From Anthoceros angustus (Eukaryota; Plantae; Anthocerotophyta), in contig MU008188.1 of assembly GCA_010909165.1 (NCBI GenBank), positions 723,766 to 787,765 on the forward strand: DNA of 64,000 nucleotides. Direction: 5' to 3'. The notes below the pieces were generated by a model. It did no database searches and was not told where the DNA came from. It saw nothing but the letters and a program-made list of their open reading frames with translations. Of this stretch, positions 4,050-62,506 are shown in pieces. Position 1 is the first letter of the stretch; every line of letters starts with the position of its first letter. A program made the translations under genes and the position numbers.

Positions 4050-7000
4050 TGTGGAACGAAGAATTTTGGTCACCCCAGACGCGGAAGGGGGAGGCCCGGC
4101 GTAGGATGGGTTGTCAGTAGGTGGGAAGTAGGTAGGACGATGAGAGCAGTGGGAAGGTGGTCGGACGTCCAGGGGAAGTTCGGGGTTTGAGTGGTCAGTG
4201 AACTCGTGGGAGGATCGATACGGTAGGAAGCATGGGTAGATAGGAGCATATATAGGCATGATAGGTTCGAGTTCCTTGGACCATGGAATATTCGGGGATA
4301 AGAAGTTCCTTGAATTATTTAGATCGCATGGCTATATATGCCAAAGAAAGCTAAGTTGTAAATAGAAAATAGCTACGGGAGTTTTGCCGGACACGTGGCG
4401 ACCATCGAGGAGGCGCCATTAAGCGGTTGCATGTACACCAAATCACAGTTAGCAGTTTGAGTGGCGTTTTCGGCGTGACTGGCGGGATGGCGGCCGAAGA
4501 GTAAGGAGCTTACGCTCGAGGCGGGCGACTTGAGGCGATTACAGCGCGTGTCGGAGGGCCTGGAGGCGACAAGGGAGGCGGCAGGCGCAGCCGCGCAAGG
4601 AGAGAAGCGAAGGAGCGCATGCTGCTGAACAGTGTCTTGGTGAGAAGCTGAAGAGAGTCGGAGAGGGTCCAGAGGGCGTGGAGATGCTCAAGCGGAGGTG
4701 GGGAGGCGTGTTGGCGAAGGAAGAGCTTGGGCGTGAGGCAGCGGGTGGAGAAGCTGGAGGGAGATTGAAGGGCCAAGGCCACCTCTTGGCGGTTGTGTGG
4801 AGGCGGGTTGGAGGCACGGAAGTTTTCCCCTTGTCATCTCACCCAAACCACCACTTCTTTGCTCACCACTCTCTTAGCACGATAGATTACTCTCCAATCT
4901 CTCAATTTTGCTATCCTTGTGTGCTCCCACATGCGGATGGTGAAGATAGTGAGGATGGGATACTCCAGGAGGAAACCTCCAGCCACCACACAAGGGAAAG
5001 GAAGAAACACCCAATTCCAGGAGTTCGAGTGTAGGCGCTCCAAATTTCACCTCGAGATTTGGAGGCGTTAGGCTATCTGAGATGAAGATGGAATGGCTGT
5101 ACTTGGTGCACAGGTGGCACTTCGAGCCACCTTGGTTCGGGGTGTCTTGTGACAGATGAGAGTGACCAAGGCGGACGGCCAGCGGAGGATCTGACGGTCA
5201 AAGTCATCACAGGATGTGGAAGGTGCGACATTTCGGGATCGTGCGATCTAGGAAGCCCACAAGGGAGGGATCATTCCGGTATTCGATTCTCCAAGAATCG
5301 GATCCGGAGGAGGTTATGGTATGTTCCTCGACCAAAGGAGGAAGTATGGTCGCAAGGCAATGGGTGGAGGATCTCTAGCAAGGAAGTGGAATTTATTCGC
5401 CAAGATATGGCTAGGACGTCTTGTGGCGAGGAAGGCGTGCACAGGAAATTCCATTTAATGATGATGTATGAGATGTCTCGGAAGTTGGTGGATTGGGCCA
5501 CCATTACGTATGAACAGCGGTTGCGAACCATTTGGTGATGGAGGGAGCAAGAATCGGTTTGTCTCTACCTTCCTCGTACACCTATATCGGAGGAGGAGGT
5601 TCTTACTGACTGGAAGAAGCCAAGATAGAAGCTACTCAGTGAGGGTAGTGGAAGGGAGCCATCGCGGCCCGGAGAGGATGAAAGCAGGCGGAGGCCCCGG
5701 GTAGAGGCCACCACCACCCATGAATGATGGCTTCGGGATCGAGAACCCAGAGAAAGGGAAAGGGCCATGAAGCACCTCCTACGGAGGAAGGAGGAAAGAT
5801 CTGAGACCACCTACGGAGGTTGAGGATTGGTGCCAACAACACGGTGGTAGGGAGTGAACCCCCTGGTGGGACCCGGGAGGATGGAGGACCTACGGTGAGC
5901 TTCCTCCTACCAAAGAGGTAATGTAACGACTTGTTAGCTGATGGAGGCGGGTGGCGGAGCGCCGAGGCGTTGGTGACCTCACACACGCAGGAGGAGGCGA
6001 TGGGAAGTGTTTGAGCGGTAGGCATCCTCTGAGTGATTCTTGGTGAAGGAAGTGGGCAGGATCTATGGACGCCCTAGTGGACCCGTGTCGGGAGGTGGCG
6101 AGAGTTCGTCTTGAACTTGAGACCTCTGAGGAGGGGAGGATCAGGAAATTGAGGAGCTCGAAAACCACCTCAGAAAGCAACACTCCGTGCTAGATCGGCC
6201 AAGGCGGCGGGATGACCAAGTTGGTGAATGTGTGGAAATGATTGACCCGGGTCTTAGGCGGGAGGCAAAATCAGCCAAGAGGGCTGGAGTTAGGCGCCGG
6301 GAAGGAGGCGGAAGAAAAATTGGAAGCTAGCAAGGGTAGGAGGCATCGAGCAGCGAGGAGGAGGCGGCATCTAGAGGCCAATGGGACCTTGAAGACGAGA
6401 AGGACCTCCTACGAAAGAAGTTAGTCGCCATGGAGCAACGGAAGGAGCATTACAAGGGAAAATATGACAGCTTGGAGAAAGAACGACAAGGATGGGACAA
6501 TGTGACCAAGGGTCACAAAGAGGAGCTTCGTATTACGAGAGAACTTTTGGAGCAGCAACGCAAGAAGGCCGACGATCTTACCCACGCCTATGAGACGGAG
6601 GCAAGGAACTACCGGAAGGAAGTTTTAATGGCCCAACGATCTTTGGAAGGTCTGCAGGTCATTCGAGGGGAGCAGGCGAGGGCGACTGCGGCCATAGTAA
6701 AACGCATGGCGATGGAAGCCATGGAGAAGGATAAGGAGATTGGGAGACTTGCCCTGGAGTTGGAGGGAGCGGTAGTGGAGACAAAGGCCGCATTGGTAGG
6801 AGTGACAAATCAAAGCCGGTGGGACGAAAAGGCCATCCCACTAAGGGTCCGTGATCATGGACGACAAAAGAAGGAGAGTAGTAGGGTGGCGACCTATTAC
6901 AACAACCTCCTAGAAGCGATTGAGGAACGCCACAAAGGAGGACGATTAAGAAACAGACCTCACCGCCCCGACAGCGGAATGGCACCGGAGGTCAAAACTT

Positions 7001-8331
7001 TGAGTGTACAAGGAAAGGCAGTGGCGGACACAAACAAGCAAGTCAAGAAGCACCACGGCGACGCCAAGAGACCTCCGAGACGGTGGAGTCATAGGAAAAA
7101 GATGGTAGGATGGTACCAAAGTTCCTACTGTAGGAACTGCTGATGAGGAGGAGGACCTCAAGGAGGGTACCTCCTACGGTGAAACCCAGCCGTGGAGGGA
7201 AGGAACCCCATGGAGATCCGAAAGGTAGGAGACGAACCGCCTACCAAGAAGACGAAGATGAGGGGAGGAACCCATCGAGGATGAACGAGGAGGAATGGAA
7301 CCTCCTACCATGGAGGACCTACCAGAGGGGCCGAGGTAGAGCATACCAGTAGTCCCGAGAAGACTCTCGAGGAGGCAAGGCTAAGCGACCCATCAAGGGA
7401 AGACATTGAAGCCGCGAGGCGAATAAGAAAGAACGAGGATGTCAGAGGACCTTTTCTATAGGACGTTTTGTCCCAAGTGGTACACCTTGGGAAGTGTGAG
7501 TATTTAAGAGTGGCGGCAAGATAGACAGATAGGATATTCGTCAAGGTGAGCCGGACCGAGCCGAGAGGATGAACCAAGGGATAAGGATCCTATTGTTGGA
7601 CTTGGCAAGTCGCCTAGCATTAAACTAGCACGAGTGACCAATGACTCCCCACCTATAAAGGGAGGGTGGAAGATGAATAAACACCGCTTGCTTTGCACTT
7701 TCTTTCCTGCCATCCCTAGCTGACCGCCAAGCCGACGAGAAGGCTAAGGGTGGGGTTCTCGAGGCCCCTCGCTGGGGTTCGCCAACGCAGTTCCTCCTCG
7801 GAAAGATTGCTGGATATGCTTTGTGTTGTTGCTGGCCTCGCAGGGATCGGCGCCGACTACGCCGCGCTGTGTTTGTACACGCAATCGCCCGAGAGAAATA
7901 CCCGCCACGCCACCCTGTGCGCTTGTGTCGCAAGGAGGCGCAACCGCTAACGCTACGGTAGAGTTAGATTTGGGATCGAATGAAGTGAGTTTCATGTGTG
8001 TGGATTTGAACTATGTTTTGAGAATGGTGAAGAGGTTGGCAATGGTGATGTGTCGTTGTAGAGTGAGTTGATTAGAAGGGCAGGAGAGTGTTGGGGATAA
8101 GAAGGAAATCGAAGGCGTGGAGCGGGCCAGTAACCTGAACGATAACACCCGCTTGTTGCCCATCCGAGGACAAGTAGACCGGCTGAACGATGAGGAGTGA
8201 GAGAGTGAGAGGAACGACCGCAAAAACAATGCCCAAACCAAATCTCTTGGGATCTGTAACCTACGTGACCAACGCATCCGTGATAAGTGTACACCGAGGC
8301 GGCGCCTCCGGGTGACCGGAAACCGTCTACA
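4050..8331 (+). mobile_element. Solo giant LTR, family A (Ty3/gypsy-type, ~4.28 kb) containing an accessory ORF
   Basis: Starts TGTGGAACG, ends CTACA; TATA at 7654. GATAAGTGT motif near the 3' end is shared with family C. Degenerate TSD ACCAT/A-ACTAT. No PBS or PPT. Confidence 0.72.
5081..7143 (+). pseudogene. LTR-borne accessory ORF (plant mobile-domain-like region plus coiled coil), frameshifted
   Basis: GNGWRIS...VDWATITYEQ...VSTFLVHLY matches family C KN-W...PDWGLIMYEAY...LSTYLVHLW; coiled coil at 6430-7143. Confidence 0.6.
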
Positions 8332-10768: not shown

Positions 10769-13700
10769 TGTGGACTACGACTCTCGTTAAGAAATAAGTA
10801 GGGCTTTGTTTTTTTGTAGGAGCCGATGGCGATACAAATATGTTGAAAAAGGGGGGGATAATAAGCACGATTTGACAGATTGGGGATCGTGACCCGAGTA
10901 TACTCCCATCCCGGATCGGGCAACGACTTTGACCTACTATGACAGCGCCTTACCGCTAAACGGGATACAAGTCCTGACTCACCCCAGTCCAAAGGTGATA
11001 AGTACACCGGAAAGTAACTTAAGTGAGCCGCGAGGACGGACTCAGGCGCGCTTACGCGGACGCCCCGGTGGAGGTCGCATGCAAACAAGCCGTGAGCTCG
11101 CCGGGCCGCGGCAGCAGTGTATTCACGCCCGCGACCCGCGCCAGAAGGCCGAGCACGGCAGCAGAAGCGCCGTAGTGTGAGGCGCAAGGTCGCAATGCCA
11201 TGCACTCCTCGCGGATGTGAAGAGGCGCCTTCCGCCTATATTCCAAGGCGCGTCAAGGGAAGGTCACTTTACCGCGCAGCCTCGAGATACCCCGCGCCTC
11301 GCCCGCAACCCGCTCGGGCGCTATCTCTTTGAGCGCCCCAAAGATTTCGGTTGTAGTCCACGGGTCGGGGTTGGAGAACAACGCGCGAGGAGGGCGATCG
11401 TGCCAAAGGAACTCCGCCAGCCTGCCGAAAAAGGAGACGAGGCGGCGGCACCCAAAAGCTCGGAAGTTTGGGAGCCATGGAACCGTGGAGCGCAACATTG
11501 TGACTCCGGGCGCTATCCGACTTTGGGCCGGCCGAGGAAGGGAGAAGGCAGGAGTGGCACGGATGCGCTAGACGGTCTCGACGCTCGGCCATACCTGGGT
11601 CCGGAGTTCACCGGAAGATGTTGGCGGTCAACAAGGAGGTGCGGTCCAAGAACCTCCGGAGGACCCATGGCGGACCTTGAGGTCCCGGGAGGCGCCTACA
11701 ACCGCCCAAAGGAGGAAGAAGGGGAGCGCTGCCCCTCAAGGCGGGAAGATAGGGCCGGGCCGAGGCCTCGACGCAGAGGACCACCAACGGTGGCCGATAT
11801 CCGACCCACCGGGATGAGTAGCGGTAGCCCTTGATCATTGTCCATTGATCCGCCACCAAGGTGGATCACCTTGGATAACCTCACAGTATTCTCGCATGCG
11901 CTACAATGGGGAAGAGGCGGACTGGGAAGGATTATCTCTGCTTAGCTGGGAGGCCCGCAAGCTCAGACCGAGAAGCCTCGCTGGCCGCCCTACCGATCCA
12001 TGTATGGGGACATTTCAGCCTCAAGGAGGGAGAGCTGAGCGGGCGCCCGAAAGGACCGAGGCCCCGCCGAAGTGGAGCGGGCGCCCGAGGTGGAGGCCGA
12101 CCCAAGGCCAAACGACCCGGGAGGAGGACGATCGGGAGGGAATTCCGACCCATACGCCCTGAACGGACCCCTCACCACCTGTGGAAGTATGGGAAGAAAT
12201 CCCCGCTTCCTCCTCGGTGCCCCAACCGAGCAGCCCAAAGCAGGCTGACCCAGCCCCGCCACCACCACATAACCATACCATGGAGCCCGCCTGACTGTGA
12301 GGGAACCAAGAGACGCAAGACCCTACTAACGCTGCACCTCGGGACCAAGATTCTTACCCCCGCCTACGGGAGTGGCAAGAAGCAGGCTGTGAAGGAGGAG
12401 GGCAGAGGACGCCTCAGTGAGCAGGAGGACACTGCAGCAGCCTGCACTCGAGCCGGCCCCTGCCGCCGATGTGAAGGGGCAAAAGGGCTTGCTCCCGACT
12501 CCTCACCTCCTCCGAGCCCTGAGAAAAGGGGAGAAGGAGCTCGGGGCTAAGGAGGGTGAAGCCCGGAAGCCAAAGACTCGTGACCTAAGGGTCCCGATTA
12601 GGTCCGGAGAACCCAACCGACTTACTCCGACAATGTATGGAGGTCTCGGATCGGAAACGCCGCCCCGCCACTGACTTTGTGGGAGCTCTCAGCGGCACCG
12701 GAAGAAACATGGCGGTTCCGCTAACATCAGATGCTTTGGGGTCTCATGAAGACCGGAAGGTAGAAGCCACCCGAGGCATGGTACTCCTCCGAGCAGCTTG
12801 AGGGGCCCAGAGGCAAGAAGGAAGGCCAAGCCCTACGGATTGAGGAAGGAAACGCCGAGGCGAGAGGGAGGTCCGTCCATCCGCAAGGATGACTAAATTC
12901 CTTCACCGGAGGAGCAAGGAAGCTAAGGAGGCCCAAGCGGCCGAGGACCTCGCAGCAGAGGGGTAGTGCACAGAAGGCAAGAGGCCCGGCGCGAGCGGGC
13001 GCGGACTCAAGTGAGGCACCAGACTGCAAGCTCGGAGAGGCTCGTGAAGGTGGCCAAGGAGGCTGAAGCACCGATCGCCATCACTACTCCATGGATCGGA
13101 ACCGGTGGAGGGAGGAGAGCCACAACCGGCCGAGCAGCAAGGAGAGCAAGCACGACGAGCCGTGTAACACTGAGGCCAAGACCCGGAAATCGGGACCAGG
13201 CGGAAATGGGCAGGAGGTAGAAGGGAGGCGGCAGAGTCGAGGACAAGAAGGACACCTTGGAGTTACAACCCAAGACGCTGGGCTGAGCAGCAAGGGGTTC
13301 TCAACGAGAATCCAAGACTTTGAGCTGAGATAGAGGCGCCCACCGCCTCAAGATGAGCAGAGGTGGTGAGGGCGCGACCACCAAAGCCTGTGAAGTTCGC
13401 GATAAGGAGATGGAGGATCTCCTGACTCAGCCCGTGAGGTGGAGCAGTGGAGATGGAAGACCGCAGGAGACTTTGAGCAGCCCAAACTACCATTGAGAGG
13501 AATGGTAGTCATAGGTCGCGAACGCGAAAATAGAGCGGCTGAGCTGGCATATGGACGGAGTCAAGAGACGGCGATGGAACAGGAGCAGGACGCCGCCGAG
13601 ATGGAGAAGGGCCTGGAGCCTGCACCGCAGAGCTGCCCACCGTCTGAGAGGGAGATGGCGAGCAATGTCTGAATGGACAAAGAGGCGAGCCGGAAGTGCA

Positions 13701-15246
13701 TAAGAAGCCGGTCCACCTTGAGGAAGGCGGAAGGCGGGCGGGCAAGCCGCGCAACTGGCCAAGGGAGTTGGAGCAGTGGAGCAACAATGACGCTGGAGGT
13801 GACCGAGGCACCTGGGCGAGAAGGCATTCAGCCTTATCAAACTCGGAGGTGGACCAATGCGGCAAAGACGCCACCCGAGCACCTATGGCGAAGGGAGACG
13901 GTGCCCGGCACACGTGAAGAGGCAATCCAACAAGTGGATTCTGGACTTTGCCTATTACTACCGAGCCCTGCAGAGAGGCCTCATCAGAAATGCACCCGAC
14001 CTGAAGGCCTGGAGGGGAAGAAGGCACGGGGACAAAGACAGTGGACTCCTAGGGCCCTGCTTGAGACGACGCAATGGGGAGAAGAGCCTCAAGAGGAGCG
14101 GGACGAACCCCCTGAGGTAAGTTCACCGCAACCCGCCTCAGAGAAGGGAGGACGGGCCCGAAGGGTGCGGAGGAGCCAACCCACCCAAGACAAGGGCCTG
14201 GGTAGGGAGGAGGACCTAGCAAGACGAGGTCCACAAGGGGTCCGGAGCTTGGGGACCGGAATAAGTTCGGACCGAGGTCCGAACCTCAGAGACCAGGCCG
14301 GACCCACCGGACCTGGGAAATAAGCCGACCCTGAGTTCAGACGAGTCGAGACCTGACTCGAGGTCCTGCCCAAAGAAGTGAGGAGCCCCTTCGACTTACG
14401 CTGGGGAGCATAGTGGCCCCACCGGAGGGGACCCACGGGAGGCTGGGAGGATGACGCCGCGGCACGGGTCATCACGCCACGAGCCCAACCCGACAGTGAT
14501 TCCGGAGAGAGGAGGTCTACCGCTGATCATCCGATTGCGCCAGAATCGTCGGGAGATTGACCACCAATCCCAAGGCGAACCTGACCTTCCTACCCCACCG
14601 CCGAAGGGGAGAGAATAGGGGTGGCGGCCGACAGGTATACCGAAATGGCCATCACCGTAATAGGGGTGTAATAAAGACGCCGACTGGGCGTAGTATAAGA
14701 GGGTCATCAATAAATCATCTTTCTTGGTGTTGATGCTGCTTGCGACAATTTTGTGTGTCTTCTGCTAACGTGAGTCCCGAGTCACCGAGCAGCAATGGCG
14801 AGAGATTGACTGGGTCCCGTGACGACTCCAACGTTGTGGTGGTGTGTGAGGGTGGGACCTGCGGCTCGGGCCCCGCCCAGCCGGGCCGAATCGGACCGAA
14901 CGCAGAGGAGGGACTCGGGGCGGCAGAGCCCTGGACGGAGAGGCCCCAGAGAACGACCTGAGGAGGTCCTGATCAAGGCCTTTTCCCTAAGACCGATAAG
15001 GTGTAGTGGGAGGGAGAGAGGAACGACGAGGTGGAGTGACTTAACGTGAACGAAACGACGCGAACGTCTCTAAACGCTTGGCCATACCGGCCCGGCGTGA
15101 TTTGTCAGGTAGTTAGACGAATCGAGAATGTGCGCTGGAACTAAAGTAAGACGAGATCGCTAAACAGAACGGAGTCCTATTCCTTTGGGAACGACTCTTC
15201 CTACAACGACACGGGATTGTGTACCAACAAAAGTGCCGCCGCCACA
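10769..15246 (+). mobile_element. Solo giant LTR, family B copy 1 (4478 bp) containing an accessory ORF
   Basis: TGTGG...CCACA termini; perfect TSD TGGTT (10764-10768, 15247-15251); TATA at 14694; colinear with 16596-20912. Confidence 0.9.
11440..14320 (+). pseudogene. LTR-borne accessory ORF of family B copy 1, frameshifted
   Basis: EPWNRGAQHCD...DHL..NLTVFSHALQW.EEADWEGLSLLSWEARKL...LPIHVWGHF, then a Glu/Arg-rich coiled-coil region. End is approximate. Confidence 0.5.
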
Positions 15247-24962: not shown

Positions 24963-24965
<3 letters not shown>

Positions 24966-25046: not shown

Positions 25047-25047
<1 letters not shown>

Positions 25048-50000: not shown

Positions 50001-52030
50001 ATGACCAAGCCTACCATGACCAAGGGCAAGGAGGTAGTAGCTAAGGAAGGAGCGTCCACCAAGGAGGTGGCGCGAGGCAAGAGGTCTAAGGCGGAGGATC
50101 AGACCCGAGGGTGGAAATTTGACATGCCCTTATTTACGTGCTATGCAGGCCAGCTATCCTCTAGAGACCTTTCAGACTTTCGACCTTGGGCAGCGAGGAG
50201 AATATATAGAGTGGTGTATGGGCGACATTGGTCTTACACCAACCTTGAATTGATAGAGGAGTGTTTTGCTAATTTACGTGACGGAAGAGGAATTGGCTGC
50301 CGGATAGAAACGCACGGACGGATCCACGGTGTTGGATGAGGAGCATACGCTGTATATGGCAGCCGGATAGCGAGGATAGCGGAATCACGTTGATGGAAGG
50401 AACGAGGAGGCAAGCGTGCATCAACGGCGGATCTTCCCAAGGGAGCCCTTACACTTATGCAAGGGCATGAAGGCTAAGTCCAAGAACGGTTCGGACCAAA
50501 TCTTGGAGCCCAAGTGGAGATTGTTCACAAGAATTGTTTTGGGCTTGGTGAGCAATCCAAGGGTGTCATATTTCAGCACTACCTTCCTCCATTTTCTATG
50601 GAAGATCACTCAAGGAGCGGCCGGATTGGGGCTCATCATGTATGAAGCATACACCTACCACCGGAAAAGTTGCGAAACCCAACGCGTCGGATGAAGGATC
50701 AAGGCCATGCTATCTTAGCACTTATCTAGTGCATTTGTGGGAAGTAGAGGGCTACTCACAAGTAAGGAGTTGGATGATTCCAAGCATCCCTTTAACATTG
50801 TGTACTTACCGAGAGGGAGTGCTTGGTGCTGGGCTAAAGGAGGTGCCGGACATTATTGCCGGAAGGAATCCTCCAAAGATAGGCCGAGGATGCAGGAGGA
50901 CTTGCAAGGAGAAGTTGTAGGGGATTTGAAGTTTGGACCGCGGAGGATGCGGAGATGGAAGGTAGGATAGATCCTACCATGGCGGGAATCCGCTGCGAGG
51001 GTGGGAGGTGTTCCCAGTGGTTTTGGGACCCCTTCGTCCTCTCATGACAAGGCCTCAGTGGTGAATTAGTCCTACCACGGTAGGAAGTAGTCCTTGGAGC
51101 ACCTCCTACCACGGTAGGAGGGAAAAGGAAGTCACGGTTTGGAAGCTCCCAAGGGAGATAAGAAGGCAACCGGCCCTGCTAGGTGGGCGAGCGGATGGAG
51201 TCACGGTGGGAGGAGTTGCCCCAAGTGATGAGCGGGAGCTCATCATAGGGAAGCAAGGGATGTAAGATCCCATGAGCAAGGCAAAGGCCTTGAGTCTCCG
51301 GAGGTAAGAAAGGAGACTTAGACATGTTGGAGGAGATGCTGCGATAGGGGAGATGTTCAGCAAGGTAGACATAGGAGCCGCCAAGAGGAGAGTTGAATTC
51401 TTGAAGGAGGCGGAGAAGACAAGGACCTACCAAGCAAGGGAAATTGCGGGTAGGCGGCGAAACCCAGTGGCGGGAGGATGTTATGAGGATGGAAGCTCAA
51501 GTGGAGCACTTGGAAAGAGTCTTGAGGCAAGGCCGAAACAAACCATCATATTCGGAGAACAAGGCTCTTACCAAGCAATTGGCAGCTCGAGAGGAGAAGG
51601 TGGAGCAACTTGCTCACATGGTGCGCATGGGAAAAGAAGGCGGAAGACAAGCAAGTGCTGCTAATGGAGGAAAGGTCAAGACGAGAGCAATCTCTGCAGA
51701 AATGAGGGGCAGACAAAGGCAAGTAGGCGCACATGAGCGGGTCATAGCCACACAGTGAAGATTAGTGACATGGAAAAGGAGCTGGGAGAAATCCACGAGG
51801 CTGGAATTGAAGGAAGAAGAGCTGGAAGAACGGACACATTTTGTCCAAAGATTGGAAATGGAACGAGAAGTCCAACGGAGAATGCACAACTCCCTAGGAG
51901 GATAGGGGAGTTGGAGGAAGAAATGGCAAAGGAGAAAGGCCATGAGGCGGTGCAAGATATGTTGGCGGTGAGGGAGCGAGATTTGGGATTATGCCCTACA
52001 AGAGAGATTGATCCGCCAACCGCAAAATGA
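50001..52030 (+). pseudogene. LTR-borne accessory ORF, 5' copy (plant mobile-domain-like plus coiled coil), frameshifted
   Basis: MTKPTMTKGKEVV..KSKN..QILEPKWRLFTRIVLGLVSNPRVSYF..PDWGLIMYEAY..LSTYLVHLW; heptad-rich MEAQVEHLE..KQLAAREEKVEQL. Confidence 0.7.
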
Positions 52031-53853
52031 GAGGACGGAGAATGTGGCTCTCCATGTCAAGACCGTGAGCTGGCCTTGAGCGAGATGCTTACAAAAGCAA
52101 GTGTGAGCATGGAGTATGGCTTGAGGATTAAGAATTGGAGATGGCACAACAACGATTTGCAGCCCATCTTCACAACAAGGTGCTCAAGGCCACTAACGAG
52201 TTGTTGCGACTTCTGAGAGGAGGATGTTGGGACCTCATGACGATGATAGGGAGGCCCTCATGCAAGTCCAACCGGAAGCCTTAGACTTGGAGAGTGTCCC
52301 AAGCAGGGGTGAAGAAACTTGCACTGTGGAGAAGCAGTGAAGCGGGAAGCACGTGGAGAGAATCACCCAGAAGGGGTAAGGAAGAAGAGTAGGAACTCCT
52401 ACCGTGGTAGGAGGAGTTCCTACCGTGGTAGGAGAAACTCCTACCGTGGTAGGAGGTGTCCTACCACCGTGGGAGGGCCATGGAAGAAGCAGGTGCTAGC
52501 ATGGATTTGCTAGCAAGGGAGGCGAGTACCTTGGCCCTTGCAGAAAGAAGGAAGAGGGGTTGATCTTGCAGAATGGAGCAAGAATCACAAGGAGAAGACC
52601 AACCTCCTAACATGGGTGCAGGAGCAAGGAGCTCACTTGCTCCACAAGTGAGAGGAAGAGGAGAAGGCGAGGATGAGGGCTAAGAGAGCCCGGCTATTTT
52701 ATTGGAGGAAGGAACTCAAGATAGGCATCAAGATAAGGAAGGGATTCATAAGAAGTCCTTAAATTAGCTTGAAGACATGGGGCAAGATGCCACTTGGGAA
52801 GACTTTTCTTTAGAGGAGGAGTATTAATGCTTGTCACCCAGAGAGTGTGTTGACTAGCTAGATAGGAATGTTGGAGAGCCATTAAGGCTCACATAGGTGA
52901 ATTTGCTAGAATAGAATTTTACCCAAGATGCTTGGATGTCGAACTTAAAATCGACAATAGGATACACTAAAATAAGGAGTGAGGCGGTGTGGGGAGGCGC
53001 CGGGAGGCTATGTGAGGACCTCCCTATAAAAGGAGCTTGTGAAGTAAAATTATCGTGTCTTGCGCTCCCATCCTCCCGAGTCCTTCACTTTGTGCAGAAT
53101 TTCGTGCCGCAAGCCAACGCAGTCTGGTAGAGAGGAGAACGCGCGGTCGGAGTCGTGGAGGCTTGCTCTTTGCAGCGCCCGCCTCCTTGTGAATGGTTGT
53201 GTGAATTGTTTTGCTTTGAGTGTGGCGATGCTCAAGGAACTCTCGGCTTGAGGGTAGACTGGGAAGACTCCAAGGTTCTCTCGTGCAAACCACATATAGC
53301 CCAAGGAAGAACTCGTTAATTCCTGACGGACCCAGTGTCCGTAAGGGCGAGTTGGAATTAATGAGCCAATTGGTGTTAGAGTAGGAGATTGTGGAGGAAG
53401 GAAGGGTAGATGAGTAGAGAAGAAGAGGGCGTTGTTGATTGAGAGAGTTGTGAGGAGGATTAGAGTGTAGGAAAACTAAGGCCAGGGAGCCTAAGGGACG
53501 AATCCCAACTGTAAGAGGGCGCTCCCGTGGAGAAGAGTGTCTTAGGAGTAGGGACGGTTGCGGTGTGGGTCGGGGTCCCCGGCGCCCGTGATAGACACCT
53601 CTTAAGACGTAACACCGCAATTGTGTGGTGTCGTAGGTTGAGGTTTGGTGAGTTTACGACGGGCGTGGCTGCTGTAGAGGAGCGTGAGAGGGCGCCTTGC
53701 TTGTTTAGAAGGCTGAGGTGTGTAGCTGCGGTAGTGTGGATTCTCAAGATTCGATCCCCAAGTCTCATGGGACGAAACCCAACGTCTGAAACGTGGGATA
53801 AGTGTGGCCGCTAGAGGGGAATCTCAGTGCCCCGGGTTTTCCTCCCACATTTT

Positions 53854-53867
53854 TGGCGCCGTTGGGA
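53854..53867 (+). promoter_or_regulatory. Primer-binding site TGGCGCCGTTGGGA
   Basis: LTR-CA, T-run, TGGCGCCGT: the Athila/Tat arrangement. Confidence 0.8.
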
Positions 53868-54899
53868 CTTGTGGGTGACAATTGAAATTTTGAGATTTTC
53901 GTTGCTAGCTTGCGTGAGTGAGAAGATCTTGTAAGGAGGTGGAGCGGGGTCTAGGAAGAAGCCTACACGTCCTGGAACCTGCGTTGTGAAGGAGGAGCTC
54001 CACGCCTCCCGAATGGTGTGATTTTTGTGTTCGCAGCAAGAATGGCGCATGGCGGTTGGCTGATTTTTCTTTAACAACCGTGTTTTGGAGGCTATGAGGA
54101 TGCTTGCAGATGTCTAGCAGAGGGAGGGGAGAGGAGAAACCATAGGAGGTCACCCCACATCGCAAGAGATCTAAGAGCTGCAAGAAGAAATCAATGGAGG
54201 GAGGAAAACGCGGTGGTTGCACCGGCTCCAGGAGGAGGAAGAGCTAAGGGCTTGAGGAGGAGGCCGTTTTGCCCTTGCCTACAAGGGGAGCCAAGTGATC
54301 CAGCAGAAACGCTTCGAGAAGGGGACGTCAAATCACCGGCAAACAAAGGAGGTGGTTGAAGAGGAGTTGGTATGTGAAGAGGAAAGCGAGGAGGAAGCAC
54401 CTTTGGAGCACGATTCAAGTTCAGCTACCAGCACCGGGCCTCTCTCAGCTGGACCTTCGTGAGAGTGGATCTAGCTCAACTCAGCGAATGAAGTGAAGAA
54501 GGTGGTGAGCAGGAGAATTTCAGCGTGGTCAAGATCTTGGAGCTTGATAGAATCACCCTCAGCTCACATCTTGGGACGCACACCTAGGGGACACCATCCC
54601 ACAACCCCCAATCTTTTGCAGACACCCTTCTGCAGAGAACTTTGGTTGGAGAATTTACTGCAGGAGAGGAAGGGAGTGAGTTCTAGCTCATCCGGACCAA
54701 GCAACATGAGTGGAGCAGGAGGGGATTTGCTTTTTGGATAGTTGTGTGTTGAGGGGTGTGAGCGTGCGTAAGTCTAGTCGGGAGGGAGGAAGTAATTTTC
54801 GTGTAGGAGTTGAGAGGAGATCACCCCGCCTTTGTCTGCAAGGGATTTGTGAACTGAATGGAGAAATCATGTGTGAAGAAAGCTTTTTCTGCAAATGTA

Positions 54900-56680
54900 G
54901 GAAGAAGCGGAGGAGAGCTCTTGAGGAAGCTACATGTGCTAACATCTTCAAGGGTTCCGTTGAGGAAGAAGAGGTAGTTGTCTAAGAGCAAGAGGAGGTT
55001 GTGCTCACCAGCGAGAGGAAGGAGGTTGTTGCCGAGGAGTTGCTGATCAAGGGTGAGGGTCAAGAATCCGAGCCGGTTAATAATTTCAAGGTACATCTTC
55101 CGTTCAAGAGGAGGATTTTTTCTGGATTGTTGAGCTCTTCTAGCTCGAGTTGGTCGTCGTCAAGAGGAGGAAGGCAAGAGGGTGAGATTTGGCGGTGGAG
55201 AAGTTGGTCGAGATCTAATGGCGAGCAAGGTCTTGATCGAATTACCGCCCATCTTGCTGCCCTTTCAACCTTGCTTGTTAAGAGGACTAGGCGTGTGCCC
55301 AAGTCTGTATAGTACATCCGCTTGCATGCATTTGTTCGCCGGACAGAATTCTGGGAGGTGTGCCCAGTTTTGTGGACGCCTCAACCATGAGTGGAGGAAG
55401 TGGAGGTGGTGGAAGTCGGTCACCACCCCGCCAACAATATGAGATTTGGGAGAAGAAACGAGGTGAAGATGTTGAGGCTTTTGTGCAAACTTTGAACATG
55501 TGACTCATGCGAATTTGGAAGCCTCATGTGGATTGTCTCCAAAATTTTCCTAGAGTACTTGAGGTCATGGCAGGGTATAGTCACACGTATGGGTGCATCA
55601 TTGGATTGGGATGATTTGAGAGCATCTTTGAACCGGTTTTGTGGCTTAAGCTATGCACATCACACGTTGGTCCGTTGAGGACTCACGAAGGAAGAGGAGG
55701 GAGTCTTGTATGATTACATAGAGGAGAGAGTACCACCACGGCCACCCAAGGATGTAGCTCGCAAAAGCAAGGCCTATGGTATGACCTTTCTTGATAAAAG
55801 TTGGGAAACAGGTAGGAAGGAGTTAGAGGGAACACATGTAGATCCATGTGCCATTAGAGCTAGAATGTGGTAAGGTGGTGAAGATTTCTAAGTGTAGAGG
55901 AGATGGTAGAGTTTAAGAAGGTGCAGGAAGAGCATGAGAATGCAGTTTCATTTTTTGGAGAGCGACTTGAGGCCACATGAATGGATTTTCGACGAGTTGG
56001 TTGCCACTGGTTGAAGGGGAGGACGTGAGCATGTTAGACGGCCTAAGGATTGATCAGCAAGCCTTGCTGCCAGAGAGGTCAAATGAGCAAGAAGGGAGCG
56101 TTGTGCAGGAAGGCGCGCAGGACAACTGGAAACCGAGAGGATAAAAGGGCGCCAGTATGGGCGCGAGGAGGAGGCTGGAATGCTCCTCAAGGGTGAGCAG
56201 TCAGGAGGCTGCAAGTGGAGGCCAGCCGTTGGCAAAGAAAGAAGCACGGATGGAGCGTCGGTCAAGCAGAAAAGGCGCCCCACTTGGCGAGGTCAAGCCA
56301 GGCGCCATGGGGCCGGAGGAGAGGCCCTAGGGAGGTAGGTGCGCCAGAGGGCGAGGAAGGAGATGCATCCCATGAGAAGCTTGAGCAAAACAGGAGAAGA
56401 AAATGGCGCATTCATGGGAAATCACTCATGAGGTGGCCATGGGGGAAACAGGCGAGGAGGTCGCCATGGGAGCACGAGCTGGACCTGGACACGAGGCTAG
56501 ACCAGCAGGAATGGAAGAAATCCGAACGTTGTTGGAGGAGGAGCATGCAACGGGCAGCTCAAAAACTTGCAAATGGACAAAGCGGGAGAAACTGGATTTG
56601 TGGATGGAACAACGCCTCGGGCTGCTGGTGGGCGAGCTAGCAGGAGGCGACGTGGTATGCGTGGAAGGAGGAGATTAGAA
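54900..56680 (+). pseudogene. gag: gypsy gag remnant
   Basis: GEDVEAFVQTFEHV...DWDDLRASF..F capsid-like region at 55450-55650. Confidence 0.6.
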
Positions 56681-56699
56681 CGTGAAGGACTCCATGTCC

Positions 56700-57380
56700 A
56701 TGTTATTGAATGGTGAGGTATGAAATTTCTTGGAGCACGGAATCATGTTGGATAGTTTGTCTAGGGAAGGGCGTGCTGTCTTTCTCCCTAGAGCTGTGCC
56801 TTATTGTCTAAGAGATGGGGTCTTATACAAGCTTGGTTTGGATGAGAAGATCCGACGTTGTTTGAAGGAAGGAAGCTTCTCTTCGAAGCTTTGCATGCGT
56901 AAGAGGTTGGAGGCCATTATTCTGTAAATCACGGTGAAGAAGATCTTAGATGCAGCATTATGGGCTTACAGACAGGAGAAGGTGACAACCAAGAAGACCT
57001 CTTATTACTTAACATGGCATGTCTCCGATGCCTGAATTTGAAGTACCTACCTATAGAATCATGGAGGATGAGCATGGAGAGGATAGTCGGTGCTAGACTA
57101 GAGTCTTTCATAGAGCAGAGGAACGTAGGGAAGATGCTTTAGAAGAAACTCAGTTGAGCTTAGAAAGGATAGGCATGATGGGAAGTTGAGGAAGCAAGAA
57201 GCTATCATGGCGGGATTTGGTTCTTCTATATGATAGCCGTTATATGGACTTCCGAAGCTTAGGTTGAGATGGATGGGACCTTGAGGTGGTGGCGTGTATG
57301 AGAATGGATCCTGCAACTCGTGTCGGATGGGGATTTCTGCCAACTAGAGTGAATGGGTGGAAGGTTAAGAAGTACCTTCC
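56700..57380 (+). pseudogene. pol: gypsy integrase remnant lacking the catalytic core
   Basis: YCLRDGVLYKLGLDEKIRRCL..GGH..TVKKIL fused directly to DAALWAYRT; then LVLLYDSR..RWMGP..RVNGWKVKKY. Confidence 0.8.
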
Positions 57381-57414
57381 GAGAATTATCTGTTGTTTCG
57401 AGGACGCAAACAGT

Positions 57415-57425
57415 GAGGAGGGGAG
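57415..57425 (+). promoter_or_regulatory. Polypurine tract GAGGAGGGGAG
   Basis: Two bases upstream of TGTGGAGC, the 3' LTR start. Confidence 0.8.
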
Positions 57426-57427
57426 TA

Positions 57428-60400
57428 TGTGGAGCAAAAGTTTGGGCAACAAGCTTAAATGAGTTCGCTTTGAACAGCCCACACTCTTTGCTAGAAATGG
57501 TTTGGTGAAGACATGCAAGGAAATTTTTTCCTTTTGAGCGGGAGTTAGGACCATGTAAGGCAAAGGATATGCAGGAAAAGAACGGGTCAAAACGACCTCG
57601 GTGAGGAGAAAAGGTAACCTACATGAGTGGTAGGAGGTGTCCTACCACCGTGGGAGAAACTCCTACCATGGTGACGAGGGTAGGAGAGATCCTACCACCG
57701 TGGGAGAATGACCCCAGTGTTTTGATCACCTACCTGGAAGCTCCTACCATGGTAGGAGAGGGTAGGAAGGTATCCTCACCGTGGGAGACTCCTACCGTGG
57801 TAGGAGAGGAAAACGCCTACCATGGTAGAGGATGTCCTACGGTGGGAGATGGGTTCTAAGGAAGGTAGCTTATGTTTTAGGCGGGATAGGCTTGCTATAT
57901 ATAGAGTCTTTTAGTGGACTAGATAAATAGGCCAAAATAGGTAATTAAGAAATTAGAGGCTAATTTTCAATAATTAGAAATTAGAAAATAGGGAAAAGTA
58001 TTTTAGTATAAGGAAATTAGGAAACTAACATCAATGGTGAGAAAGGGCCACGTGGCACACATCCAAGGGCAGGATAGAATGGTAGTTACTTTTCTAACCC
58101 TTGGGTGACTTATAAAAGTGGTCGCAGAGGAGACAACTCGACTTGAGGCGGCCTCACACAGAAGGCGCCACACCTCAAGCTGCCCAAGGCCCCATACAGC
58201 ACCCGTGCCTGTGTTGAGGAGGAGAAGGAGGGCGCAAGCTCGGCAAGGAGGCGGCAGCGCCCAAGAGAGGAAGGAGGAAGAGAAGAAGAGAAGGAGAAGA
58301 AGGTTGGGGCGCAACCCAACACTTGCCAAGCTCGTGAGGGTGCCTAGGAGGGTGGAGCGTGGCAAGATTGCTAGGAAACCGTGCAGAAGGGCTCCTAAAT
58401 TCGTGGCAGTGTAAGAGTCCTGGGGAATTTTGTGAGCTTTCTCTTGAAATCGGGTTTGGGGCCAAGGTGTAAGGGCTGGAGGAGAGCAAGGCAAGGACCT
58501 TTGAGCTGTGAGCAAGAGCAAATCACGAGGAGGAGAAACGTTTGCAAGGATAGAAGGTGGCAGCTGCAGAATTGCGGGAGAGGCATCACTTTTCTTCAAT
58601 TTCGTGCAAGTACTAACCAAGGAGGCCATGACCAAGCCTACCATGACCAAGGGCAAGGAGGTAGTAGCCAAGGAAGGAGCGTCCACCAAGGAGGTGGCGC
58701 GAGGCAAGAGGTCTAAGGCGGAGGATCGGACCCCGGAGGGTGGAAATTTGACATGCCCTTGTTCGTACTATGCAGGCCAGCTATCCTCTAGAGACCTTTG
58801 ACTTTCGACCTTGGGCAGAGAGAAAATAGAGTGGGTGTATGGGCGACATTGGTCTTACACCAACCTTGAATTGATAGAGAGTGTTTTGCTAATTTGCAGC
58901 ACGGAAGAGGAATTGGCCGCCGGATAGAAAGCACGGACGGATCCACGGTGTTGGGAGAGCATACGCCCGGTATATGGCGGCGGATAGCGAGGATAGCGGA
59001 ATCACGTTGATGGAAGGAACGGAGGCAAGCGTGCATCAACGCGGATCTTCCCAAGGAGCCCTTACACTTATGCAAGGGGCATGAAGGCTAAGTCTAAGAA
59101 CGGTTGGCGACGGACCAAATCTTGGAGCCCAAGTGGAGATTGTTCACAAGAATTGTTTTGGGCTTGGTGAGCAATCCAAGGGTGTCATATTTCAGCACTA
59201 CCTTCCTCCATTTTCTATGGAAGATCACTCAAGGAGCGAAGCCGGATTGGGGCTCATCATGTATGAAGCATACACCTACCACCGAAAAGTTGCGAAACCA
59301 ACGCGTCGGATGAAGGAGGTCAAGGGCTATCTTAGCACTTATCTAGTGCATTTGTGGGAAGTAGAGGGCTACTCACAAGTAAGGAGTTGGATGATTCCAA
59401 GCATCCCTTTAACATTGTGTACTTACGAGAGGGACAGGAGTGCTTGGTGCTTTGCTAAAGGAGGTGCCGGCAGCACCACGACATTATTCGGAAGGAATCC
59501 TCCAAAGATAGGCCGAGGATGTGCGGGAGGACTTGCAAGGAGAAGTTGTAGGGGATTTGAAGTTTGGACGCGGAGGATGCGGAGATGGAAGGTAGGATAG
59601 ATCCTACCATGGCGAATCCCCGAGGGTGGGAGGTGTTCCCACGTGGTTTGGACCCCTTTCGTCCTCTCATGACAAGGCCTACGGTGGCTTAGTCCTACCA
59701 CGGTGGAAGTAGTCACTAGGAGCACCTCCTACCACGGTAGGAGGGAAAGGAAGTCACGGTTTGGAAGCTCCCAAGCGGAGATAAGAAGGCAACCGGCCCG
59801 TTAGGTGGGCGAGCGGATGGAGTCACGGTGGGAGGAGTTGCCCACCAAGTGATGAGCGGGAGCTCATCATAGGGAAGCAAGGGATGTAAGATCCCATGAG
59901 CAAGGCAAAGGCCTTGAGTCTCCCGGAGGTAAGAAAGGAGACTTGGACATGTTGGAGGAGATGCTGCGCATAGGGAGATGTTCAAGGTAGAAGGAGCCGC
60001 CAAGAGGAGAGTTGAATTCTTGAAGACGGAGGCGGAGAAGACAAGGACCTACCAAGCAAGGGAAATTGCGGTAGGCGCGGAAACCCAACGGGGAGGATGT
60101 TATGAGGATGGAAGCTCAAGTGGAGCACTTGGAAAAGAGTCTTGAAACAAGGCGAGGCAACAAACAATCATATTCGGAGAACAAGGCTCTTACCAAGCAA
60201 TTGGCAGCTCGAGAGGAGAAGGTGGAGCAACTTGCTCACATGGTGCACATGGGAAAAGAAGGCGAAGACAAGCAAGTGCTAATGGAGGAAAGGTCAAGAC
60301 GAGAGCAATCTGCGGCAAATGAGGCAGACAAAGGCAAGTAGGCGCATGAGCGGGTCATAGCCACAGTGTGAAGATTAGTGACATGGAAAAGGAGCTGGGA

Positions 60401-62506
60401 GAAATCCGAGGCTGGAATTGAAGGAAGAAGAGCTGGAAGAACGGACACATTTTGTCCAAAGATTGGAAATGGAACGAGAAGTCCAAAGCGAGAATGCACA
60501 ACTCCCTAGGAGGATAGGGGAGTTGGAGGAAGAAATGGCAAAGGAGAAAGGCCGTCATGAGGCGGTGGTCATATGTTGGCGGTGAGGGAGCAGATTTGGC
60601 TGATTATGCCCTACAAGAGAGATTGATCCGCAATGAGAGGAGAATGTGGCTCTCCATGTCAAGACCGGTGAGCTGGCCTTGGGCGAGATGCTTACAAAAG
60701 CAAGTGTGAGCATGGAGTATGGCTTGAGGATTACGAAGAATTGGAGATGGCACAACAACGATTTGCAGCCCATCTTCACAACAAGGTGCTCAAGGCCACT
60801 AACGAGTTGTTGCGACTTGAGAGGAGGATGTTGGGACCTCATGACGATGATAGGGAGGCCCTCATGCAAGTCCAACCGGAAGCCTTAGACTTGGAGAGTG
60901 TCCCAAGCAAGGTGAAGAAACTTGCACTGTGGAGAAGCGAGTGGGCGGGAAGCTGCACAGTGGGAGAATCACCCGGAAGGGTAAGAAGAAGAAAACTCCT
61001 ACCTGGTAGGAGGAGTTCACCGTGGTAGGAGGAGTTCCTACCGTGGTAGGAGGAGTCCTACCGTGGTAGGGAGGTCCTACCATGGTAGGAGGGCGGAAGA
61101 AGCGGATTCAAGGCTAGCATGGATTTGACAAGGAGGCGAGTACCTTGGCCCTTGCAGAAAGAAGGAAGAGGGGTTGATCTTGCGAATGGAGCAAGAATCA
61201 CAAGGAGAAGACCAACCTCCTAACATGGGTGCAGGGGAGGGGCTCACTTGCTCCACAAGTGAGAGGAAGAGGAGAAGGCGAGGATGAGCCCTGGCTAAGA
61301 GAGCCCGGCTATTTTATTGGAGGAAGGAACTCAAGATAGGCATCAAGATAAGGAAGGGATTCATAAGAAGTCCTTAAATTAGCTTGAAGACATGGGGCAA
61401 GATGCCACTTGGGAAGACTTTTCTTTAGAGGAGGGCATTAATGCTTGTCACCCGAGAGTGTGTTGACTAGCTAGATAGGAATGTTGACAGAGCCATTAAG
61501 GCTCACATAGGTGAATTTGCTAGAATAGAATTTTACCCAAGATGCTTGGATGTCGAACTTAAAATCGTAGGATACACTAAAATAAGGTAAGGCGGTGAGG
61601 GGCGCGCCAGGAGGCTGTATGTGAGGACCTCCCTATAAAAGGAGGGAGCTTGTGAAGTAAAATTATCGTGTCTTGCGCTCCCATCCTCCCGAGTCCTTCA
61701 CTTTGCAGAATTTCGTGCGCCGCAAGCCAACGCAGTGTCTAGAGAGGAGAACGCGCGGTCGGAGTCGGGTGGAGGGCTTGCTCTTTGCAGCGCCCACCGC
61801 CTCCCTTGTGAATGGTTCTTGTCATTGTTTTGCTTTGAGTGTGTGGCGATGCTCAAGGAACTCTCGGCTTGAGGGTAGACTGGGAAGACTCCTGGAGGTT
61901 CTCGCTGTCGTGCAAACCACATAGCCGGCCCAAGGAAGAACTCGTTAATTTCCGGACGGACCCAGCATTGTGCGTGGCGAGTTGGAATTAATGAGCCAAG
62001 AATTGGTGTTAGAGTAGGAGATTGTGGAGGAAGGAAGGGTAGATGAGTAGAGAAGAAGAGGGCGTTGTTGATTGAGAGAGTTGAGGAGGATTAGAGTGTA
62101 GGAAAACTAAGGCTGTGTGCAGCCTAAGGGACGAATCCCAACTGCAAGTAAGAGGGCTCCCTCGTGTGGAGAAGAGTGTCTTAGGAGTAGGGACGGTTGT
62201 GTGTGGGTCGGGGTCCCCTGGCGCCGTGATAGACACCTGCCGTTAAGACGAACTGCAATTGTGTGGTGTCGCTGTAGGTTGAGGTTTGGTGAGTTTACTA
62301 CAAGACGGGCGCGAGGCTGAGAGGGAGCGTGAGAGGGCGCCTTGCTTGTTTAGAAGGCCGAGGTAGTGTGTAGTCAGCAGTAGTGACGGATTTCTCAAGA
62401 TCGACTGCCTCAAGTCTCATGGGACGAAACCCAACGCACGAAACGGCTGGGATAAGTGTGGCCGCTTAGAGGGTGCATCTCGGGAGCTCCTGGATCTGCC
62501 TCCACA
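57428..62506 (+). repeat. 3' LTR (5079 bp)
   Basis: Colinear with the 5' LTR; TATA at 61634; ends CTCCACA. Confidence 0.88.
58628..60650 (+). pseudogene. LTR-borne accessory ORF, 3' copy
   Basis: Same translation as 50001-52030 with different indels. Confidence 0.7.

What the first reader, a model, noticed from the sequence alone, without database searches (positions are those of the whole stretch)
4050..62506. Giant 4.3-5.1 kb LTRs that contain a whole accessory gene, in three families
Seen: five complete LTRs (4050, 10769, 16596, 48756, 57428) plus a truncated one (35934). Four begin TGTGGA and the fifth TGGGAA. All have an internal ~2-3 kb ORF with a DW..I/L.Y/W-E motif, an HLY/HLW/HVW motif and a coiled coil, with the canonical TATA only 550-825 bp from the 3' end. 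For family C the LTR limits are fixed by PBS, PPT and the split host motif. For B1 they are fixed by a perfect TSD. Known: extra ORFs in plant Athila/Tat/Ogre elements normally lie in the internal region; LTR-encoded genes are a retroviral feature (MMTV sag, HIV nef overlap). Inference: each element carries two copies, and solo-LTR formation leaves a full transcription unit that could act in trans, for example in anti-silencing.
Basis: partly seen in the sequence, partly recalled or inferred. Interest (0 to 1): 0.8.

Follow-up and report, generated by a model that had tools for sequence, protein, structure and literature searches.

The report
Gene inside giant plant retrotransposon LTRs
Three families of jumping genes in a plant genome have unusually long end repeats (4.3-5.1 kb), each holding a frame-broken 2-3 kb stretch that is likely a protein gene; such a gene would be copied twice per element and survive in lone repeats, where it might help the family escape silencing.

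Summary
The giant LTRs are real. Family C is a complete Gypsy-type element (48756-62506) with two ~5.1 kb LTRs, a primer site, a purine tract and a deleted interior. A, B1 and B2 are solo LTRs bounded by target duplications or a split host reading frame. Short-read contigs bridge the purine-tract/LTR junction and join the LTR start to the coding stretch and the TATA box. The tandem-element rival fails.

The gene is less secure. No window copy is intact (longest open stretch 122-267 aa), largely because the assembly is indel-rich. A-C protein kinship is modestly supported (z 5.0 and 3.2); B's is not shown. B1 versus B2 shows no codon-periodic divergence (z 0.7; control 8.2). No homologue or fold was found.

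New here: family C LTRs carry 11-15 copies of an 18-bp palindrome, a candidate binding site for a VANC/PMD-like anti-silencing protein (inferred, about 35%). The sixth 'LTR' (35934) is a minus-strand 3' end with no coding stretch. Ten paper searches gave no plant precedent. This scan noted the same layout before in a likely liverwort and in fungi.

The parts
4050..8331 (+). Family A solo LTR, 4.28 kb, TGTGGAAC...CTACA
   Evidence: TSD ACCAT vs ACTAT offset by one base; no PBS after it; no terminal repeat inside
4950..7143 (+). Family A coding-like stretch in U3: DW...YE at 5491, STFLVHLY ending near 5587, 267-aa open E/K/R-rich stretch 6340-7140
   Evidence: limits approximate
10769..15246 (+). 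Family B solo LTR B1, 4.48 kb, TGTGGACT...CCACA
   Evidence: perfect TSD TGGTT
11440..14323 (+). B1 coding-like stretch (DWEG near 11920, HVW near 12000); kinship with A/C not shown
   Evidence: limits approximate
14266..14283 (.). B-type 8-2-8 palindrome at the end of the coding stretch; one copy, kept in B2 at 19884
16596..20912 (+). Family B solo LTR B2, about 4.32 kb, 71-73% like B1; splits a DUF7869 reading frame
   Evidence: the 3' end is uncertain by a few bases
20174..22778 (+). Tandem duplication of the B2 3' end plus host flank (78% alike), probably an assembly artefact
   Evidence: artefact status inferred
35934..36300 (-). 3' end of a B-related LTR on the minus strand, cut by a Copia LTR; no coding stretch
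48756..53849 (+). Family C 5' LTR (C1), 5.09 kb in the window, probably about 5.4 kb in truth
48969..49175 (.). First cluster of the C palindrome CTCCTACC-N2-GGTAGGAG (7 matches); more at 50971-51120 (3) and 52396-52621 (5)
49239..49456 (+). Upstream TATA-like boxes (49239, 49450), candidate promoter for the U3 gene; also at 57896 and 58111 in C2 and 4249 and 4333 in A
   Evidence: function untested
50001..52340 (+). C1 coding-like stretch: basic N-terminus from ATG 50001, helical core 50464-50814, linker, coiled-coil-like part 51405-52030
   Evidence: frame-broken, 3' limit approximate
53025..53031 (+). Canonical LTR TATA box, 825 bp from the 3' end
53854..53869 (+). Primer binding site TGGCGCCGTTG... 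(tRNA-Asp type as in Athila: recalled, not tested)
53850..57427 (+). 3.6 kb interior with gag-like and integrase C-terminal-like remnants (recalled motifs; no Pfam hit); no protease, RT or RNase H seen
57415..57425 (+). Polypurine tract directly before the 3' LTR
   Evidence: junction bridged by short-read contig X3 record 19
57428..62506 (+). Family C 3' LTR (C2), 5.08 kb, with its own coding-like stretch (58628 to about 61030) and 11 palindrome matches

Best explanation
These are true 4.3-5.1 kb long terminal repeats of Gypsy-type retrotransposons whose U3 part holds a frame-broken 2.2-2.9 kb stretch that is likely an accessory protein gene, predicted to encode a dimeric DNA-binding protein that would bind repeated motifs in its own LTR and likely counter host silencing. 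SHOWN: the LTR limits, two copies in element C, three solo copies, the position of the coding-like stretch upstream of the LTR TATA box, the palindrome arrays in family C, and A-C protein similarity at the motif. FROM ESTABLISHED RETROELEMENT BIOLOGY (my own knowledge): everything between the purine tract and R in the genomic RNA is copied to both ends, and LTR-LTR recombination leaves one full LTR. INFERRED: an accessory ORF that once lay between pol and the 3' LTR was taken into U3 when plus-strand priming moved to an upstream purine tract. It is expressed from the upstream TATA boxes and ends at the LTR poly(A) site, so solo LTRs keep a full transcription unit that could act in trans. My odds: true giant LTR 0.93; a gene that was functional when the families spread 0.75; VANC/PMD-like anti-silencing role about 0.35.
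For: LTR limits: PBS, PPT, TSDs and two split host frames. No inner terminal repeat, and no PPT plus TG upstream of the TATA box. Short-read contigs: X3 record 19 bridges the PPT/LTR junction (57131-57621); X3 record 16 (4405 nt) joins LTR positions ~170-690, the whole coding stretch and the TATA box in one contig (X3 being RNA is only a guess). Frame breaks are at least partly assembly errors: 370 indel rows against the short-read contigs, 11 of the 12 shown being bases missing from the window, and record 16 is 6.8% longer than the stretch it covers. Families A and C share no DNA similarity, yet the C core aligns to A at the motif (score 53, z 5.0, null maximum 44), and reciprocally to C2 (46, z 3.2). 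Palindrome: 15 and 11 matches in C1 and C2, 0 in the interior, 0 in 25 kb of other DNA, 0 in 20 resamplings of each LTR. VANC21 binds dense motif arrays in its own family (PMC5735166, passages), is predicted to dimerise by a coiled coil and is structurally related to the PMD protein MAIN (PMC13547354, passages). PMD-A clades are encoded only by Gypsy elements (PMC5418596, passages).
Against: No intact copy in the window. B1 vs B2 mismatches show no codon periodicity: z 0.70 over 1383 columns, against z 8.2 for two Copia pol copies under the same test; errors may swamp the signal, but this gives no support for selection. B's kinship with A or C is not significant (z -1.2 to 1.6), and A vs C1 reached only z 1.5; the cores were chosen because of the motif. 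Of 20 displayed substitutions shared by X2 and X3 in the coding stretch I classified 8 and dropped 12 (near indels or frame unknown): 4 synonymous (3 in the N-terminus and core), 4 non-synonymous (all in the coiled-coil part). Palindrome arrays are absent from A (1 weak match; hairpins 6 vs null 3.5) and B (one copy each). The VANC paper describes motifs arrayed in the same orientation and does not mention palindromes. No Pfam, sequence or fold link to VANC, PMD or DUF1985 was obtained here.
Confidence: 0.55

Rival explanations
1. The U3 gene is real and selected but has a structural or replication role, like Athila ORF1/env-like accessory proteins (oligomer, particle or nuclear-import helper). 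The palindromes are ordinary LTR tandem repeats or host-factor sites.
For: Long coiled-coil-like part. Athila-domain proteins are predicted to form coiled-coil pentamers (PMC13547354, passages). Non-chromovirus LTRs and non-coding regions often hold tandem arrays (PMC6317226, passages). Palindrome arrays occur in only one of the three families.
Against: No Athila ORF-1 or Transposase_28/32 Pfam hit on the fragments (weak, because the fragments are frame-broken). An earlier, unreviewed finding reports a VANC-like fold for a similarly placed gene in a likely liverwort (e1-10601626; a lead only).
Confidence: 0.25
2. The stretch is a once-captured ORF that now decays neutrally and is carried passively because it lies in U3.
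For: No codon periodicity in B1 vs B2 (z 0.7; control 8.2). No intact copy. No database homologue.
Against: The motif is kept between A and C, which share no DNA similarity. Many frame breaks are assembly errors. The 3 assignable N-terminal and core substitutions between C subfamilies are all synonymous (small n). A keeps a 267-codon open stretch.
Confidence: 0.15
3. The long repeats are not LTRs but tandem non-autonomous elements sharing a short LTR, or repeats made by the noisy assembly.
For: Tandem LTR-retrotransposon arrays are common in plants (PMC11899658, abstract). The assembly is noisy and the B2 3' end is duplicated.
Against: No terminal direct repeat in any of the 5 units. No PPT plus TG upstream of the TATA box: the 3 purine-tract matches in C lie downstream of it. 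No primer-site context at the 4 internal TGGCGCCG/TGGCGAC matches, which lie inside the units. TSDs and host frames close around whole 4.3-4.5 kb units. Short-read contigs reproduce the PPT junction and the LTR-start-to-TATA linkage.
Confidence: 0.05

Closest known systems
MMTV sag (LTR-encoded ORF in U3; PMC12548423, passages read)
   Same: A gene inside U3, which makes up most of the LTR; present in both LTRs; solo LTRs exist
   Different: A retrovirus superantigen. No sequence relation was tested or is expected. The LTRs here are 4.3-5.1 kb and belong to a plant retrotransposon.
Extra ORFs of plant non-chromovirus Ty3/gypsy elements (Athila ORF-1, Ogre PMD, Retand Transposase_28, Grande gene23; PMC6317226 passages; PMC7264820 parts 1-2 of 3)
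   Same: Accessory ORF in a Gypsy element with a non-Met tRNA primer site; LTRs up to about 5 kb are already known in non-chromoviruses
   Different: The review places these ORFs in the internal region, mostly between pol and the 3' LTR; here the stretch is beyond the purine tract, inside the LTR. [quoted passage not shown]
VANC anti-silencing proteins of VANDAL transposons and PMD proteins MAIN/MAIL1 (PMC5735166, PMC13547354, PMC5418596, bioRxiv 2024.04.02.587720; passages)
   Same: Proposed way of working only: a helical core plus coiled coil, with family-specific motif arrays in the element's own DNA
   Different: VANC is encoded by Mutator-like DNA transposons of eudicots and binds same-orientation 8-9 bp motifs. 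No sequence or fold link was obtained here.
Rice Retrosat2/RIRE3/RIRE8 ORF0 (PMC3485330, passages)
   Same: LTRs of about 3 kb or more, an extra ORF and many solo LTRs
   Different: ORF0 is described as upstream of gag-pol, not as part of the LTR, and is grass-specific

Membership tests
LTR retrotransposon | Direct terminal repeats with TG...CA ends around an interior | tested here: met
   C1/C2 89.9% over 5241 columns; all five start TG and end CA
LTR retrotransposon | 5-bp target site duplication | tested here: met
   Perfect for B1; 4 of 5 and offset for A; for C the left copy lacks two bases but the host motif is split there; B2 unclear but the host frame is split
LTR retrotransposon | PBS after the 5' LTR and PPT before the 3' LTR | tested here: met
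   53854 and 57415-57425; PPT junction bridged by a short-read contig
Ty3/gypsy non-chromovirus (Athila/Tat superclade) | RT/RH/INT phylogeny; presence or absence of the additional RNase H | not testable with these tools
   No RT or RNase H seen in the 3.6 kb interior; no genome held
Ty3/gypsy non-chromovirus (Athila/Tat superclade) | gag first, integrase last, no chromodomain | tested here: inconclusive
   Remnants read by recalled motifs only; Pfam 0 hits in 13 fragments and 3 frames, protein search none
Ty3/gypsy non-chromovirus (Athila/Tat superclade) | Non-Met tRNA primer site | tested here: inconclusive
   PBS reads TGGCGCCGTTG; assignment to tRNA-Asp is recalled, no host tRNA was available
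VANC / PMD (DUF1985, PF10536) proteins | Profile match to the family domain | tested here: inconclusive
   No such hit in 22 fragments or 15 stop-read frames of the cores; all are frame-broken
VANC / PMD (DUF1985, PF10536) proteins | VANC21/MAIN fold | tested here: inconclusive
VANC / PMD (DUF1985, PF10536) proteins | Dense family-specific motif arrays in the element | tested here: inconclusive
   Met for C (15 and 11 matches, null 0); not met for A or B
VANC / PMD (DUF1985, PF10536) proteins | Sequence-specific DNA binding and loss of methylation in trans | not testable with these tools
   Needs bench work
U3-encoded gene (MMTV sag layout) | Coding stretch wholly inside the LTR, upstream of the LTR promoter | tested here: met
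U3-encoded gene (MMTV sag layout) | Intact ORF that is expressed | tested here: inconclusive
   No intact copy in the window; X3 is only guessed to be RNA and is held as contigs

The most novel reading that the evidence does not exclude
A lineage of bryophyte Gypsy retrotransposons has moved a whole sequence-specific anti-silencing gene, together with its palindromic target arrays, into the LTR. Every solo LTR is then a self-contained counter-defence cassette, and the host's main way of removing retrotransposons (LTR-LTR recombination) leaves behind the very gene that reactivates the family.
Probability: 0.3. Interest if true: 0.85.

Novelty: new variant of a known kind. Interest (0 to 1): 0.62.

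Why it matters
LTRs are treated as non-coding, and solo-LTR formation as the end of an element's coding capacity. If these LTRs carry a working gene, solo LTRs (3 of the 4 complete insertions here) keep it, its copy number follows LTR number rather than element number, and it could support deleted elements such as C in trans. It would give plant retrotransposons a layout known from a retrovirus (MMTV sag). It also offers a testable protein-motif pair for the open question of what plant retrotransposon accessory ORFs do. In practice, LTR and gene annotation pipelines are likely to miss or mislabel such repeats (my inference).

Tried and rejected
No genome is held for this window, so copy number, intact copies and RT phylogeny could not be examined.

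Profile and sequence searches for the U3 protein found nothing: Pfam on 22 fragments gave only DUF7869 for a host frame plus chance-level hits; Pfam on 18 stop-read frames 0. Word-based protein searches gave none (and 67 for the integrase-like remnant). HMMER against 1.84 billion representatives gave 14 of 14 unrelated repeat proteins. ESM Atlas gave no usable hit. PDB sequence searches were not significant. Metagenome scans: 0 confirmed of 459 stretches and 0 pattern matches. The viral scan gave 2 loci that are one chance match in unrelated DNA. All queries were 68-110 aa or frame-mixed, so these blanks are weak.

The AlphaFold model of a 68-aa piece was uninformative and VANC21 was not listed; this does not exclude it. 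The fragment alignments were poor. The base-composition period-3 test had no power: controls reached only z 1.2-1.5.

No RNA holder is on record. X3 has no cover over 53224-56824 and its long contig ends at 53055; contigs cannot show an RNA end, so this is not used. X1 summed depth averages 1791 over the coding stretch, 1712-2149 over the rest of the LTR and 520 over the interior; this agrees with an LTR location, but the tool warns that such depth is no copy number and the run was found with this stretch, so it is not counted as evidence. The bacterial promoter scan does not apply.

Paper searches listed no report of a gene inside a plant retrotransposon LTR; most subscription papers are not covered. 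PMC7466625, PMC10508981, PMC13468544 and bioRxiv 2022.12.06.519325 (passages) did not bear on it. No supplements were read; those of PMC6317226 (eORF tables) and PMC5418596 (PMD sequences) may bear on novelty and family.
Full report
SETTING. The window is eukaryotic plant-like DNA packed with nested retrotransposons. An earlier unreviewed note calls the genome a likely hornwort (e1-10596208; not tested here). No whole genome is held. The sequence is noisy: the two LTRs of one element differ by 416 mismatches and 115 gap events in 5232 columns. Short-read contigs disagree with the window at 370 indel rows; 11 of the 12 shown are bases missing from the window. Every coding claim below is limited by this.

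ARE THE LONG REPEATS LTRs? Family C: 48756-53849 and 57428-62506 match at 89.9%. The first is followed by TTTT and a primer site TGGCGCCGTTG (53854). The second is preceded by the purine tract GAGGAGGGGAG (57415-57425). The whole 13.75 kb element interrupts a minus-strand Copia protease motif: the right flank reads ...GGA, the left flank ATSHI..., and an intact copy of the motif elsewhere in the window reads DSGATSHIC. The 3.6 kb interior has gag-like and integrase-tail-like remnants by recalled motifs only (Pfam 0 hits) and no visible protease, RT or RNase H, so this copy is probably non-autonomous. B1 (10769-15246) has the perfect TSD TGGTT. B2 (16596 to about 20912; 71-73% like B1) splits a DUF7869 frame (Pfam E 5.4e-11) at VGH|...DQIDQMF. 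A (4050-8331) has ACCAT vs ACTAT offset by one base. None of A, B1, B2 is followed by a primer site, so they are solo LTRs. The unit at 35934 is the reverse complement of an LTR 3' end with short matches to B, cut after about 370 bp by a Copia LTR, and holds no coding stretch.

THE TANDEM RIVAL. A low-stringency self-comparison found no terminal direct repeat in any of the five units. The only purine-tract-plus-TG matches (1 in C1, 2 in C2) lie downstream of the TATA box. In independent short-read contigs, X3 record 19 spans 57131-57621, bridging the purine tract and LTR start. X3 record 16 (4405 nt) carries LTR positions about 170-690, then the coding stretch up to just past the TATA box (53055), in one piece. 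Record 16 is 6.8% longer than the window stretch, so the true C LTR is probably about 5.4 kb. Run X2, labelled a different organism, also holds pieces of the C LTR. The rival is rejected.

IS THERE A GENE? Each LTR has on its + strand a run of overlapping frame fragments over 2.2-2.9 kb. The order is a basic N-terminus, a core with DW..I.YE (DWEG..L.WE in B) and, 17-25 residues later, STxLVHL[YW] (PYPIHVW in B), a low-complexity linker and an E/K/R/Q-rich heptad-like part. The longest open stretches are 267 (A), 223 (B1), 202 (B2), 122 (C1) and 171 (C2) residues, so no intact ORF is shown. The families share no DNA similarity. A frameshift-tolerant alignment of the C core to LTR A scores 53 and ends on the motif (5587); shuffled queries give 34.6 +/- 3.7 (z 5.0) and 21 control stretches at most 44. 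The A core scores 46 on C2 (z 3.2) but 38 on C1 (z 1.5). No comparison with B is significant. So A and C are likely kin; B is only similar by eye.

SELECTION. Mismatches between B1 and B2 in the coding stretch show no excess at lags of three (z 0.70; 340 mismatches in 1383 gap-free columns). The same test on two Copia RT/RNase H copies gives z 8.2. This counts against strong purifying selection between these two copies, unless errors dominate: the duplicated B2 end, probably one locus assembled twice, differs at 13-19% of columns with no periodicity. Of 183 substitution rows, 40 were shown and 20 lie in the coding stretch. I classified 8 and dropped 12 near indels or of unknown frame: 3 of 3 in the N-terminus and core are synonymous, 1 in the linker is synonymous under an uncertain frame, and 4 of 4 in the coiled-coil part are non-synonymous. 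Selection is unresolved.

WHAT PROTEIN? Every database search was blank or chance. The only model, of 68 residues, is two helices at pLDDT 61 with no meaningful match. An earlier unreviewed finding in another genome, a likely leafy liverwort, reports a gene in roughly 4 kb LTRs with a predicted VANC-like core (e1-10601626). I could not reproduce a fold here and did not show that it is the same family; it moved my reading from Athila-ORF-like to VANC/PMD-like as the leading guess.

C1 and C2 carry 28 and 22 perfect short hairpins, against null means of 3.4 and 3.5 (maxima 8 and 6). An 18-bp palindrome, CTCCTACC-N2-GGTAGGAG, matches 15 times in C1 and 11 in C2 (up to 4 mismatches). It forms three clusters in each LTR: near the LTR start, in the linker and just after the coding stretch. 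It has 0 matches in the interior and in 25 kb of other DNA. A has one weak match and an excess of the half-site (2.8 per kb vs 0.3). B1 and B2 each keep one different palindrome of the same 8-2-8 shape at the end of the coding stretch. TATA-like boxes lie upstream of the coding stretch in A, C1 and C2; B1 has only TATATT and B2 none by my patterns.

MECHANISM. From retroelement biology (my own knowledge), whatever lies between the purine tract and R is copied into both LTRs. The simplest origin is that an accessory ORF between pol and the 3' LTR, the commonest place for such ORFs (PMC7264820, parts 1-2 of 3 read), entered U3 when plus-strand priming shifted upstream; this is inferred. A fungal finding of this scan reports an LTR gene related to a sister element's pre-PPT ORF (e1-7415546, not checked). 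For function I favour a dimeric, sequence-specific protein that binds its own LTR and counters silencing. The reasons are the core-plus-coiled-coil layout, the family-specific palindromes, VANC's binding to dense motif arrays (PMC5735166), its predicted coiled-coil dimer and structural kinship with MAIN (PMC13547354; bioRxiv 2024.04.02.587720), and Gypsy-encoded PMD clades (PMC5418596). All of these were read as passages. None of this is shown for these proteins; I put it at about 0.35.

WHAT IS KNOWN. LTRs up to about 5 kb and extra ORFs are both known in plant non-chromoviruses (PMC6317226, passages). Rice Retrosat2 has LTRs over 3.2 kb and an ORF0 upstream of gag-pol (PMC3485330, passages). 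A gene in U3 is known from MMTV (PMC12548423, passages). Ten searches listed no plant retrotransposon with a gene inside its LTR. The large survey did not separate LTR from internal positions when it classed extra ORFs, and subscription papers and supplements were not seen.

VERDICT. The architecture is real and unusual. The gene is likely but not shown intact, expressed or selected. The function is a guess with a testable target. New variant of a known kind; interest 0.62.

Noticed in passing
window 20174-22778: The B2 3' end and 540 bp of host flank are tandemly duplicated at 78% identity with no codon periodicity; probably one locus assembled twice, and a rough gauge of the error level.
   Followed up: partly
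window 16400-16595 and 22196-22933: A DUF7869 (PF25273, E 5.4e-11) reading frame, split by B2; it looks like part of a DNA-transposon-like element into which B1 may also be inserted.
   Followed up: partly
window 40288-47757: A Copia element with 269-bp LTRs 99.3% identical, so recent and locally well assembled, nested in a minus-strand Copia.
   Followed up: no
window 25073-28772: A Copia element with 150-bp LTRs (89%), an internal duplication of an RT piece (25916-26272 / 26995-27342) and a short Copia-LTR-like insert near 27810-28020.
   Followed up: no
window 37-154 and 35816-35933: A 118-bp repeat (92%); the second copy ends exactly where the minus-strand LTR end at 35934 begins, marking its insertion site.
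   Followed up: partly
window 33150-35190: A spliced host gene with a signal peptide and motifs that resemble neprosin/DUF239 proteins (recalled, not tested).
   Followed up: no
window 30190-30530: Exons that resemble the C-terminus of an Mrp/NBP35-type iron-sulfur carrier (recalled, not tested).
   Followed up: no
window 1843-3900 and 8332-8420: A transposon-like frame with a ParB-like look (1843-2385) and a minus-strand, cysteine-rich spliced frame interrupted by LTR A (identity not tested).
   Followed up: no
window 24487-24585 and 24965-25050: Microsatellites (GACTT)n and (AAT)n.
   Followed up: no
window 49915-53716 (run X2): Pieces of the family C LTR occur in a run labelled a different organism and share 20 displayed substitutions with run X3, suggesting a subfamily shared across organisms.
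   Followed up: partly
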